Positions 36,001 through 39,000 of a stretch of DNA of 43,204 bases are shown piece after piece. Made by a program: the position numbers. The stretch is from a virus. Where the stretch lies: UHGV virus genome UHGV-0007115, one strand, 5' to 3'. Positions within the stretch are counted from its first letter, which is position 1. The number at the start of each line of letters is the position of its first letter.

Positions 36001-39000
36001 GTGCCCAATTTGTAATGTCCGCAGAAAACGCACCAGCTTTTACCCTAATAATCAAAATGCGGACGGCTTAATGGCATGGTGCAAAACGTGCTGGGACGAG
36101 CACAAAGCGAAACGATAGGCCGCTCTTGCGGCCTTTTCTTTATGTGGTTTGTTTTCGTAATTGTTCGGCACAATAGTCGAGATGTGTTTGCAGATCCTGC
36201 ATAGACATCTGTGAGCTGGTGACGTAGTTAATCAGTGCAGTCAGTTCGGCAAGTGGGCCATCGACATTAAATCCATCCTTATCGAGATCCCGGAGTAATT
36301 TCATCAAGTGCGATCCCTCCACTAGTGATCTGACGCCTCCCGGCGTGTGAATCCTTTCGGTAAATCCGTCTTCCAGTGGATAGTGATACTGCTGCATCTT
36401 ATCTTCTCCATGCAATAACTGTATATTTATACAGTATCAAATAATTTGTTTGCTATCCAGCACGTTTTGCAAATTACCTGAAAGGTAATATCTATTCGTA
36501 TTCACAGTCTTTCTATCCATATGTGGTTTTTCAGGTAATAGAATAACCAGATATGCGGCGCAACGGGTGCTGCGACTATCTGGAGATTTAACATGACGGT
36601 CTCAACCGAAGTTGACCACAACGAATACACCGGTAACGGCGCTACGACATCATTTCCGTATACCTTCCGTATTTTCAAAAAATCCGACTTGGTTGTTCAG
36701 GTGTCTGACCTGAACGGGAGCGTAACAGAATTGGTTCTGGATACCGGTTATACGGTAACTGGGGCGGGCACTTATAGTGGCGGTTCTGTTGTTCTTCCGT
36801 CGCCGCTTGCTGCTGGATGGCGAATTACGATAGATCGTGTGCTTGATGTAGTGCAGGAGACAGACCTTCGCAATCAGGGAAAGTTTTTCCCCGAAGTGCA
36901 TGAAGATGCCTTTGACTACCTGACGATGCTGATCCAGCAATGTTTTGGGTGGTTCAGACGTGCATTGATGAAACCATCTTTGCTTGCAAAATATTACGAT
37001 GCAAAGCAAAACAGAATTTCTAACCTTGCAGATCCATCACTTGAGCAGGACGCTGTAAATAATCGCTCAATGCGTAATTATGTCGATGCTGCAATCGCCG
37101 GGGTTGTTGGTGGTTTTGGTTGGTTTATTCAGTATGGTTCTGGAGCAGTATACCGAACGTTCCAGGATAAGATGAGAGACACCGTTAGTGTTCGCGATTT
37201 TGGGGCAAAAGGCGATGGTATAACAGATGATACATCTGCATTGATCCTGGCTGCAGAATATGCACGAGAATCATCCAGAACATTACGAGCGGAAGGTAAT
37301 TTTATTATTACGGAGACATTAAATCTTCGTAATGTCAGCCTCGAAATGACCAATGCTGTTTTTACCATATCCCACTCAGGAATAGGGGTATTGCTTGGCG
37401 GGAATGCATCAAACCCTAACAACCCAAGACAAAACTTCGGAACGATTATCAGAAATTCTGGTATTTCATCTGAAACGACACCGGATATTCGTATTATCGG
37501 GGCAAAAGGGCAGCATATTAACATTGAGCGTTGCGACTACTTACAGTTATATGCAAATTATAATGCTTCGGTGGCATCGACGGATTATTCAATAGCATAC
37601 TCAACCTTTAACCTGAAAAAGGTCGATACAATTCATTTTCTTGGAGTTGAGAAAGGATGGATAAATGAAAACTATTTTTATCTGAATCGTACGAATAATA
37701 TCATTTTCGCTGATAATCCATATCATCATAACCACAATAAGTTTTATGGTGGAACTATGGAGGGGGCAGGTAAAATTGATATTCAAAGAGGTGATAACAA
37801 TTACTTCTACGGGTTTCGTTTTGAACGATATCCATCATCCATAACTAACCAACAGTTGATAATTAACTTTGGTGAATATACGTGGAATAACTCAATTGAG
37901 GCTTCATGGTTAAGTTCTCCTTACTATACAAATGAACCATACAATCCATCACCTTACACTTATGTAGAGGTAACTGATAATGGCAAGGGGAATGCAGTAT
38001 TTCATGTTCAGGAAAATATATCCGATGAAGTAACATTGTTTTCTTTAAATGCTAACACCCCATTTATATCCAGTGCCAACAATGGAGAAGTTGGTGTATT
38101 AGCATATCAAACAGATGTAGATGGTTTATATAATATCCGTCACCTGGTTTCTTCTAAGTTTGCTTTTATGCGGAATTTTGGGTTGTTATGGGAATCTGGA
38201 GATGTACCAGTAAGAAATGGTGATATGTTTACATTCTCAGCAGATACGGCATCGTTTCGCATTTACCTGTATGCATTAGATGGAGATGGGAATGTCATAA
38301 CTTCACAAACAGAAGCAATAACTTCTTCTATGCAATGGGATTCATCTAACCATAGATATGCTACTGTTGCTAACATTTCTTCCATTAAGATCAGGATTAA
38401 TAATGAAGGGGTTCCAGTTAGTGCAATTCGTTTAGCTGTGTATTCTGGTGGTAATGTAGCGAATACTGCATTTTCATGGCTATGCTTAACTGGTAGATAT
38501 TACAAAAATAGCACATCCTTGCCAAGGAAAAGAAAAGATAACTTCACCTTAAAACAAGGAAAAGCAATTACTTATTATAGTGATACTGATATTAGTATGG
38601 CTAACATTGGTTCAGGAATTACCTGTTATAAAACCGATTTATCTGAAATCAAAATTAATCTTGTAAGGGGCAGGTATGTAGTGAAATCAATTTCAGGCAG
38701 TGAAATATATGTATACCAAGGAACAGCCACTTATTACCCTCCATTCAGTGATGTCAAATTGGTATATACGGATGGGGTTGAAAATAAATTATTAGATGTG
38801 CAAAACATCTCTTCAGGAAAGATTACTCTTGCAGATACAGTACCATCAGCTATATCTGCAGGTGATTTTGTAGATGTTATTGTTACAAAGACGAAATCTA
38901 TTTTATGAAGTGTTTATTTATCCTTATGTTAAAGGAGCGATAATGGATATAACGCCTTTCCTTCATGCGTTTTGTGCTGTGGCTGCTCAGGTACTGATTG

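What the first reader, a model, noticed from the sequence alone, without database searches (positions are those of the whole stretch)
36593..38908. Mosaic tailspike with a sharp composition shift
The first roughly 200 codons are GC-balanced and resemble a conserved particle-attachment domain, whereas the remainder is visibly AT-rich and contains a pectate-lyase-type FGAKGDGITDDT motif. This is the signature of a horizontally exchanged receptor-binding or depolymerase module, which would set host serotype specificity.
Basis: seen in the sequence. Interest (0 to 1): 0.4.

Follow-up and report, generated by a model that had tools for sequence, protein, structure and literature searches.

The report
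Prophage tailspike with swapped depolymerase module
This gene encodes the tailspike of an epsilon15/phiV10-type E. coli prophage: a conserved tail-attachment part fused to an AT-rich, beta-helix sugar-cutting module that also occurs, almost identical, on unrelated phage backbones, which is a clear but ordinary case of receptor-module swapping whose sugar target remains unknown.

Summary
ORF 36593..38908 (+, 771 aa) is real. GC falls from 0.47 (first 200 codons) to 0.36, the lowest 1.5 kb of the window (0 of 2000 codon shuffles match the change-point). FGAKGDGITDDT is at aa 203-214. The drop is stepwise rather than razor sharp, and relatives carrying other C-modules show it too.

Exchange is shown directly. 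The C-module occurs in only 15 genomes: 6 behind this anchor and 9 behind a P22-type head-binding domain (95-99% nt). It also occurs behind a PF18668 adaptor in a third podovirus. The junction falls inside the 33 nt that encode GAKGDGITDDT.

The serotype claim is not borne out simply. The 12 typed lysogens span six O-antigen cluster types (O166, O1, O1-like, O99, O17-group, O120). The substrate is unknown; the closest tested relative (30% aa) is a Pasteurella capsule depolymerase.

This is a known kind (Pas et al. 2023) and of low-to-moderate interest.

The parts
36593..38908 (+). Tailspike (receptor-binding protein) gene, 771 aa
   Evidence: ORF. Full-length match to phrog_18162 'tail fiber protein' (1244 bits). 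Same position as the tailspike in phiV10/EC.W1-9-type genomes, between the antirepressor/moron region and the lysis cassette.
36593..37198 (+). N-terminal anchor module (aa 1-202) that attaches the spike to the epsilon15/phiV10-type tail
   Evidence: 95-97% nt identity to phiv142-3, EC.W1-9, ZX5 and HEMP4, ending at nt 536-641. Present in 504 of 5426 E. coli genomes, fused to diverse C-modules. aa 1-180 match Dpo31 D1-D2 (28lx), E 2e-35; D1 is the tail-attachment domain. GC 0.466.
37199..37234 (+). FGAKGDGITDDT codons: N-terminal cap of the beta-helix and the crossover site of module exchange
   Evidence: P22-type chimeras become about 100% identical from window 37202. epsilon15-type relatives with other C-modules stop being homologous at 37233. 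Sub-threshold PF12708 hit on aa 198-221. The same motif region aligns to CBA120 TSP3, a GH55 glucanase and a polygalacturonase.
37234..38945 (+). Variable cassette within the epsilon15-type backbone (C-module plus a 37-nt spacer)
   Evidence: blastn against EC.W1-9 and phiv142-3: homology ends at 37233 and resumes at 38946. Present in only 15 of 5426 E. coli genomes. GC 0.362, GC3 0.274.
37175..38032 (+). Predicted right-handed parallel beta-helix catalytic domain (aa ~195-480)
37658..37825 (+). Conserved core with candidate catalytic residues: W356-I-N-E359-N, Y377-x-H-N-H-N382, E390, R409-x-E411
   Evidence: Invariant in 54 of 54 aligned homologues down to 22% identity; E359, E390 and E411 are the only invariant acidic columns. 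A catalytic role is inferred, not shown.
37550..37552 (+). Approximate second mosaic breakpoint (gene nt ~960, aa ~320)
   Evidence: The N1131 tailspike is 97-100% identical up to nt ~960, then 50-75%. This lies near the GC change-point at nt 922.
38033..38905 (+). Distal beta-sandwich domains (aa ~481-771), poorly conserved
   Evidence: All-beta in the model, pLDDT mostly 80-95. Only R556, G675 and T745 are conserved. Most of the 449 family representatives align only to the first 210-440 residues of the module.
38943..39227 (+). Small membrane-protein ORF (94 aa, phrog_1443), an epsilon15-backbone gene immediately downstream and probably co-transcribed
   Evidence: AAGGAG Shine-Dalgarno and no terminator in between. 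PHROG hit. Conserved in E-1246, N1131, EC.W1-9 and phiv142-3. Most of it (to 39182) travelled with the C-module into the MS14385 P22-type prophage.

Best explanation
The gene encodes the single tailspike of a phiV10/epsilon15-type (Uetakevirus-like) temperate podovirus integrated next to yfgI.

SHOWN:
- The protein is a two-part chimera. Residues 1-~202 are the genus-wide anchor.
- From the GAKGDGITDDT cap onward it is a cassette that circulates independently of the backbone. Copies with 95-99% nt identity sit behind a P22-type head-binding domain in Lederbergvirus-like prophages at three different chromosomal sites. Copies with 92-94% aa identity sit behind a PF18668 adaptor in a ~60-kb podovirus with an SU10/P22-type portal.
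- In the backbones whose DNA was compared (epsilon15-type and P22-type), the junction falls within the 33 nt that encode the cap motif.

INFERRED:
- Crossovers happen by short-homology recombination in that motif, which many beta-helix modules share, and at or just after the stop codon. One transfer (MS14385) also carried part of the downstream epsilon15 gene, so at least that event went from an epsilon15-type to a P22-type phage.
- The spike is a homotrimer. The anchor docks on the tail.
- The beta-helix (aa ~195-480) binds a host surface polysaccharide along its groove and cleaves it by acid/base catalysis using the invariant glutamates E359, E390 and E411. That makes a glycoside hydrolase more likely than a lyase. 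Cleavage lets the virion work its way down to the outer membrane.
- The variable distal domains (aa ~481-771) add trimer stability and/or extra glycan contacts.
- The low GC reflects a module pool with its own AT-rich codon usage plus an Asn/Ile/Ser/Tyr-rich beta-helix composition.

The polysaccharide target is not identified. It is probably an O-antigen or another surface glycan present in several serogroups.
For: - Backbone identity: 96-98% nt to EC.W1-9, TL-2011b, phiV10 and phiv142-3 over the structural genes. Integrase, portal/adaptor, capsid, tail and ejection proteins and the lysis cassette were identified.
- Anchor.
- Cassette limits: 37233/38946 against epsilon15-type relatives. 37202/38912 against P22-type chimeras at argW and torT. 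37202/39182 in the chimera between sbcB and dacD.
- Same module behind PF09008, PF18668 and no-Pfam (epsilon15) N-termini. More distant copies (30-49%) lie behind PF12571, PF22337, PF27114 and PF03906.
- Fold.
- Conserved Glu triad and WINEN / YxHNHN motifs.
- Homology (30% aa over all 570 residues) to the gp17 tail fibre of Pasteurella phage PHB02. By name and size this is the recombinant Dep-ORF8 that produced translucent spots on lawns of capsular type A P. multocida but not on capsule-deficient mutants (PMC6090149).
- Composition.
- The general framework of anchor/RBD swapping between Uetake-, Lederberg- and lytic genera is published (PMC10408124).
Against: - No enzymatic or binding data exist for this module.
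- Pfam PF12708 is below threshold, and NCBIfam gives nothing.
- Fold relatives include lyases, epimerases and a non-enzymatic adhesin (PfbA), so chemistry cannot be read from the fold.
- The model is a monomer. Trimerisation and the spatial clustering of E359/E390/E411 were not checked because the tools did not return coordinates.
- Near-identical modules (99.3-99.7%) sit in lysogens with unrelated O-antigen clusters (O99, O166, O17-group). That is hard to reconcile with a single O-antigen substrate.
- The anchor part of the model is low-confidence (pLDDT below 50).
- Homology to the anchor ends at several positions (nt 582, 595-615, 636-642, 664), so the cap motif is the junction only for modules that possess it.
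Confidence: 0.85

Rival explanations
1. The module recognises a receptor other than the O-antigen, such as a capsule (K antigen) or another exopolysaccharide shared by strains of several O-serogroups. It would then set host range but not O-serotype specificity.
For: - The 12 typed lysogens carry six O-cluster types, and near-identical alleles sit in O99, O166 and O17-group hosts.
- The only tested relative acts on a capsule.
- The same anchor also carries K1 endosialidase modules.
- Pas et al. report 25 RBD subtypes with inconsistent host serogroups and offer the same explanation.
Against: - Each host O-type is rare and strongly over-represented among carriers: O166 3 of 15 against 18 of 5426, P = 1.4e-5; O1-like 3 of 15 against 13 of 5426, P = 4.8e-6; O99 2 of 15, P = 6.4e-4.
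- Within O166 and within the O1-like type, the module arrived in different prophages, sites and alleles. That suggests a link to those O-types.
- Capsule loci of the hosts were not examined. All inspected hosts have colanic-acid loci, so none has a group 1 capsule at that locus.
Confidence: 0.35
2. The module is O-antigen specific but has a broad or multi-serogroup range, for example a linkage shared by several O-units. Alternatively, O-antigen switching or in-cell recombination between prophages has decoupled the spike from its host's current O-type.
For: - The carriers' O-types are enriched and recur through independent acquisitions.
- O1 and the unnamed E200086-type cluster share gene order (rml genes, wzx, wecB, GT2, wzy, GT2) and together account for 5 of 15 carriers.
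- Uetake- and Lederbergvirus spikes are typically O-antigen specific.
Against: - The O99 (ABC-transporter-dependent cluster with gmd), O166 (galE plus glycosyltransferases only) and O17-group (mannose-pathway genes) clusters differ in gene content and export pathway.
- The module fails the published criterion that at least 90% of host serogroups be identical.
Confidence: 0.4
3. The composition step is not a sign of foreign origin. It only reflects the amino-acid bias of beta-helix domains.
For: With backbone codon usage, amino-acid composition alone predicts a drop from 0.485 to 0.441, about 40% of the observed drop. All relatives' C-modules are equally AT-rich, whatever their sequence.
Against: GC3 falls from 0.44 to 0.27 (Fisher p = 2.4e-5). 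The C-module is 0.079 below its amino-acid-based expectation, against 0.019 for the anchor. Exchange is shown independently of composition.
Confidence: 0.1
4. The C-module is a polysaccharide lyase, as the 'pectate-lyase-type' label implies, or a purely binding, non-catalytic spike.
Against: The only invariant acidic residues are three glutamates in successive parts of the helix, the pattern of tailspike hydrolases (established knowledge of P22, Sf6 and HK620 spikes). R409 is the only invariant basic residue; K305, R246, R366 and R556 are 94-96% conserved; and no Ca-binding Asp cluster is conserved. Strong conservation of a compact polar core argues for catalysis rather than binding alone.
Confidence: 0.2

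Closest known systems
Tailspikes of Uetakevirus phages (Salmonella phage epsilon15 gp20, E. coli phage phiV10, phiv142-3, EC.W1-9)
   Same: Same ~200-aa anchor (95-97% nt to the E. coli members, about 75% to epsilon15-like Salmonella phages), same gene position and same backbone. Pas et al. delimit the anchor as the first 205 aa of the phiV10 spike.
   Different: The C-terminal module is unrelated beyond the cap motif. No sequenced phage in the INPHARED collection carries this module closer than 49% aa.
P22/HK620/Sf6-type (Lederbergvirus) tailspikes
   Same: Same architecture: anchor, beta-helix enzyme, distal domain. Nine complete E. coli genomes carry this very C-module (95-99% nt) behind a PF09008 head-binding domain. 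Sf6 and HK620 spikes are fold neighbours.
   Different: The window's gene has the epsilon15-type anchor, not the head-binding domain. Sequence identity of the catalytic part to solved P22-family spikes is only about 10-13%.
Pasteurella phage PHB02 tail fibre gp17 (putative depolymerase Dep-ORF8) and Pasteurella phage F108 proteins
   Same: Homologous over the whole 570-aa module (30-36% aa; BFVD best hit F108, TM 0.74, 34% identity). Invariant Glu triad shared. Dep-ORF8 is the only family member with experimental depolymerase-type activity.
   Different: T7-like anchor, Pasteurellaceae host, and substrate linked to the P. multocida serogroup A capsule. At 30% identity, specificity cannot be transferred.
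Klebsiella K2 capsule depolymerases Depo32 / DpK2 / K2-2 TSP and Salmonella phage Det7 tailspike (solved structures)
   Same: Best Foldseek matches over 570-700 columns, so a similar overall domain order: N-domain, beta-helix, distal beta domains.
   Different: 10-14% identity and low global TM (0.2-0.3), partly because the anchor is badly modelled. Different substrates.
Dpo31 tailspike of marine podovirus Carin-1 (PDB 28lx/28mg/8ck1)
   Same: aa 1-180 align with its D1 (tail-attachment beta-sandwich) and D2 (coiled coil), E 2e-35.
   Different: Apart from a weak match at the cap motif (E 0.05), the catalytic part is unrelated in sequence. Dpo31 has a cleaved C-terminal D4 domain, which was not looked for here.

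Membership tests
Uetakevirus (epsilon15/phiV10-type) tailspike | N-terminal ~205-aa anchor homologous to the phiV10/epsilon15 spike | tested here: met
   95-97% nt to phiv142-3 (classified Uetakevirus), EC.W1-9 and ZX5; about 75% to epsilon15-like Salmonella phages. PHROG tail families hit on aa 1-165/227.
Uetakevirus (epsilon15/phiV10-type) tailspike | Encoded in an epsilon15-like genome, after the antirepressor/moron block and before the holin-endolysin cassette | tested here: met
   Backbone 96-98% to phiV10, TL-2011b and EC.W1-9. Neighbours identified.
Right-handed parallel beta-helix (pectin-lyase-fold) tailspike depolymerase | Beta-helix fold of the central domain | tested here: met
Right-handed parallel beta-helix (pectin-lyase-fold) tailspike depolymerase | Homotrimeric assembly | not testable with these tools
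   Only a monomer could be predicted. Trimerisation is inferred from all solved relatives.
Right-handed parallel beta-helix (pectin-lyase-fold) tailspike depolymerase | Polysaccharide-degrading activity | not testable with these tools
   Only indirect evidence: the invariant Glu triad and the activity of the 30%-identical PHB02 Dep-ORF8.
Pfam PF12708 (Pect-lyase_RHGA_epim) | Score at or above the gathering threshold (27 bits) | tested here: not met
   19.6 bits, and only aa 198-221 aligned. Some distant homologues do pass (P0052, 44.6 bits).
Pectate/polysaccharide lyase (beta-elimination chemistry) | Conserved catalytic base (Lys/Arg) with Ca-binding aspartates, or an equivalent lyase centre | tested here: inconclusive
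   The invariant polar residues are E359, E390, E411, R409, N358 and N382, with no conserved Asp cluster. Geometry could not be inspected.
O-antigen-serogroup-specific RBD subtype (criterion of Pas et al. 2023) | At least 90% of hosts or lysogens carrying the subtype belong to one O-serogroup | tested here: not met
   12 typed carriers: O166 x3, O1-like x3, O1 x2, O99 x2, O17/O44/O73/O77/O106 x1, O120 x1. Criterion quoted.

The most novel reading that the evidence does not exclude
This module family (invariant WINEN...E390...R-x-E411 core, shared with a Pasteurella capsule depolymerase) targets a surface glycan that is not tied to a single O-serogroup. The target would be either a non-O-antigen polysaccharide or a linkage common to O166, O1, O1-like, O99, O17-group and O120 strains. 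The 33-nt GAKGDGITDDT-coding stretch would then act as a cross-genus recombination joint in temperate Uetake- and Lederbergviruses, where published work found no conserved flanking motif.
Probability: 0.3. Interest if true: 0.45.

Novelty: new member of a known kind. Interest (0 to 1): 0.25.

Why it matters
Tailspike receptor-binding modules decide which strains a phage (or an engineered phage or tailocin) can attack. This locus gives a clean natural example with nucleotide-resolution junctions: one uncharacterised module sits on three podovirus backbones. It also gives a defined set of lysogens (O166, O1, O99 and others) and candidate catalytic residues for testing. It adds one more receptor-binding-domain subtype whose hosts do not follow the one-serogroup rule, which bears on serotype prediction from prophage spikes. 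It does not change the current picture of phage mosaicism.

Tried and rejected
- Pfam and NCBIfam assignment of the C-module gave only a sub-threshold 24-residue PF12708 hit and nothing in NCBIfam.
- I tested whether all lysogens share one O-antigen (first O166, then O99, then the E200086-type cluster). This is rejected: there are six cluster types.
- A single sharp change-point at codon ~200 is rejected. The best change-point is at nt 922 and the decline is stepwise.
- The cap motif as the universal junction of this anchor is rejected. Many modules join at nt 582 or elsewhere.
- The promoter/terminator scan was no better than shuffles (11 against 11.1 expected) and gave no usable signal.
- Coordinate guesses for the O-clusters of W46 and PEC011 missed because their prophage sits at a different site. 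Those two and 23CRST013 remain untyped.
- The anchor part of the AF2 model is unusable (pLDDT below 50) because the alignment was built from C-module homologues.
- Capsule (kps) loci of the hosts could not be surveyed with the available look-ups.
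Full report
OBSERVATION

GC is 0.467 in the first 600 nt and 0.362 in the remaining 1716 nt, against a window mean of 0.475. The lowest-GC 1.5-kb stretches of the whole window all lie inside this gene.

The change is significant. The change-point log-likelihood ratio is 13.1, and none of 2000 codon shuffles reaches it (largest 9.6). GC3 falls from 0.44 to 0.27 (Fisher p = 2.4e-5). With the codon usage of the prophage's structural genes, amino-acid composition alone predicts 0.485 and 0.441 for the two parts. So about 40% of the drop comes from the Asn/Ile/Ser/Tyr-rich composition and about 60% from synonymous choice.

The motif FGAKGDGITDDT is at aa 203-214 (window 37199-37234).

There are two corrections. 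The decline is stepwise (0.497, 0.437, 0.420, 0.353 per 300 nt), and the best single change-point is at gene nt 922. The same split is also seen in the tailspikes of relatives with unrelated C-terminal parts (EC.W1-9 0.461/0.356, phiv142-3 0.463/0.364, N1131 0.452/0.372).

CONTEXT

The window is a prophage of the phiV10/epsilon15 type.
- It has an integrase at 193..1443, then head, tail and ejection genes, then an antirepressor/toxin 'moron' block.
- The tailspike follows, then a 94-aa membrane-protein ORF, two holins, a GH19 endolysin and a spanin-like gene.
- The host genes yfgI and yfgH come next.
- The structural region is 96-98% identical to phages EC.W1-9, TL-2011b, phiV10 and phiv142-3.

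THE TWO MODULES

In PHROGs, residues 1-165/227 hit more than 20 different tail-protein families. The last 571 residues hit only phrog_18162, and they match it over their full length.

At the DNA level, sequenced phages match only nt 1 to 536-641 (95-97%). The best phage match to the C-terminal part is 49% aa (Vectrevirus PDP21P6/P3), followed by 30-36% to Pasteurella multocida phages and 28% to Vibrio phages.

Among 5426 complete E. coli genomes, 504 carry the anchor but only 15 carry the C-module. Six have the whole gene (96.5-99.8%). Nine have only gene nt 610-2316 (95-99%), inside genes annotated 'phage head-binding domain-containing protein'.

Those nine lie in P22-like prophages (ejection proteins, Arc/Mnt-type repressors, antirepressor). 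Contexts were inspected for four of the nine and cover three chromosomal sites:
- argW/yfdC in E200086;
- next to torT in 100117;
- between sbcB and dacD in MS14385.

The metagenome-scale protein search adds a third adaptor. Proteins of 757 aa with a PF18668 Tail_spike_N domain carry the same module at 92-94% aa. One is encoded on a ~60-kb phage contig with an SU10/P22-type portal. More distant copies (30-49%) sit behind PF12571, PF22337, PF27114 and T7-type PF03906 N-termini.

The exhaustive representative search finds 449 clusters at E <= 1e-3. Only about a dozen align over the full 570 residues; most share only the first 210-440.

JUNCTIONS

- Against the P22-type chimeras, identity starts at window 37202, inside GGGGCAAAAGGCGATGGTATAACAGATGATACA (G-AKGDGITDDT). 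It ends at 38912, four bases past the stop codon, in two contexts.
- In MS14385 it continues to 39182, taking most of the downstream 94-aa ORF. That ORF is an epsilon15-backbone gene, also present next to other C-modules. This points to a transfer from an epsilon15-type to a P22-type phage.
- Against epsilon15-type relatives with other C-modules, homology ends at 37233 and resumes at 38946.
- So the 33-nt cap-coding stretch is common to both sets and is the crossover region.
- It is not the only junction of this anchor. A spread sample of the 504 genomes shows ends at nt 582 (for example with K1 endosialidase beta-propeller modules), 595-615, 636-642 and 664.
- A second breakpoint lies inside the module. 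The N1131 spike is 97-100% identical to nt ~960 and 50-75% beyond.

FOLD AND LIKELY CHEMISTRY

AlphaFold2, run on a 54-sequence alignment, gives pLDDT mostly above 90 for aa 195-771. The anchor is poorly modelled because the alignment is thin there.

By sequence, aa 1-180 match domains D1-D2 of the solved Dpo31 tailspike (E 2e-35), whose D1 attaches the spike to the tail.

Pfam PF12708 is below threshold (19.6 against 27 bits, 24 residues), so 'pectate-lyase-type' is a fold-level statement only.

Conservation across the family is concentrated in aa 265-467. W356-I-N-E359-N, Y377-x-H-N-H-N382, E390 and R409-x-E411 are invariant in 54 of 54 sequences, and the three glutamates are the only invariant acidic positions. 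By analogy with P22-, Sf6- and HK620-type spikes (established knowledge), I infer a carboxylate-based glycoside hydrolase centre. This was not shown, and the geometry could not be inspected.

The only experimentally tested relative is the PHB02 tail fibre gp17 (968 aa). By name and size it corresponds to Dep-ORF8, which produced translucent spots on lawns of capsular type A P. multocida but not on capsule-deficient mutants.

RECEPTOR AND SEROTYPE

| O-cluster type | Carriers |
|---|---|
| O166 | JNE070796, AST20, AST240 |
| O99 | E-1246, fS10a |
| O17/O44/O73/O77/O106 group | PS_131_S11 |
| O120 | S87 |
| Unnamed, O1-like gene order | E200086, 100117, 100248 |
| O1 | MS14385, EC11 |

Modules that are 99.3-99.7% identical to the window's copy sit in O99, O17-group and O166 hosts. 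The published criterion for an O-specific subtype (at least 90% of hosts in one serogroup) is therefore not met.

On the other hand, each of these O-types is rare in the collection and strongly over-represented among carriers (P from 6e-4 to 5e-6, uncorrected for clonality). Within O166 and within the O1-like type, the module occurs in different prophage families, sites and alleles, which suggests repeated independent acquisition.

The substrate thus remains open. It could be a glycan shared across these strains, a multi-serogroup specificity, or partial decoupling through O-antigen switching or in-cell recombination. Pas et al. found 25 of 64 RBD subtypes with such inconsistency and discuss the same explanations.

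COMPARISON WITH WHAT IS KNOWN

Anchor/RBD modularity and cross-genus transfer between Uetake-, Lederberg- and lytic genera are described in detail in PMC10408124. [quoted passage not shown] Here, a conserved 33-nt stretch marks the junction in both temperate backbones for this module. This is a small addition to that picture, limited to modules that start with the cap motif.

VERDICT

The serotype clause is unproven, and as a simple rule the lysogen distribution contradicts it. This is a new, uncharacterised member of a well-known kind.

Noticed in passing
window 36419-36434 (and ORF 36140..36397, minus strand): CTGTATATTTATACAG is a near-consensus LexA/SOS box (3 CTGT-N8-ACAG matches in the window against 0.53 expected; this is the only one with an AT-rich core). 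It lies 22 nt upstream of an 85-aa ORF homologous to the C-terminal domain of antirepressors (phrog_450, phrog_1760). This may be a LexA-controlled small antirepressor that triggers induction, as in coliphage 186 (Tum) or the Gifsy phages.
   Followed up: partly
L001 5535-18402 (E. coli E-1246, NZ_CP025573.1): In E-1246 the same prophage (99.9% identical around the tailspike) carries a ~12.5-kb resistance insertion that splits the BRO-N antirepressor gene, which is intact in the window at 34302..35039. The insertion holds IS26, ISEcp1-blaCTX-M-15, aac(3)-IIe, Tn3 fragments and pemIK.
   Followed up: no
L003 5001-7301 (E. coli N1131) and 20AR0300: A variant tailspike shares the anchor and the first ~350 nt of the C-module at 97-100%, then drops to 50-75% identity (64% aa overall, P0010). 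This marks a second exchange point inside the beta-helix near aa 320. The variant also occurs behind a P22-type head-binding domain in 20AR0300.
   Followed up: partly
window 38943-39227: A 94-aa predicted membrane protein (phrog_1443, no known function) lies directly downstream of the spike with a strong Shine-Dalgarno. It is conserved in epsilon15-type relatives whatever their C-module, and it was partly co-transferred into the MS14385 P22-type prophage. phiV10-type phages often place O-antigen-modifying or exclusion genes at this position.
   Followed up: partly
window 16365-16441 (minus strand): A tRNA-Arg (anticodon TCT) gene is encoded inside the prophage, between the early and structural regions. 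The O157 typing phages 9 and 10 are annotated with a tRNA-Arg in the matching region.
   Followed up: no
E. coli complete genomes (sample): The epsilon15-type anchor is present in 504 of 5426 genomes. It is fused to very different enzymes: K1 endosialidase beta-propellers (for example APEC O1 and IAI39), SGNH/GDSL esterases and 'GH28-related' beta-helices. Junctions cluster at nt 110-124, 582, 595-615, 636-642 and 664.
   Followed up: partly
window 2251-2950, 32101-32800, 42351-42600: These are other low-GC patches (0.27-0.37). The second covers the 283-aa ORF 32223..33074 (phrog_6118, unknown function) just after the ejection-protein genes. The third lies in host DNA, at the end of and just upstream of yfgH.
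   Followed up: no
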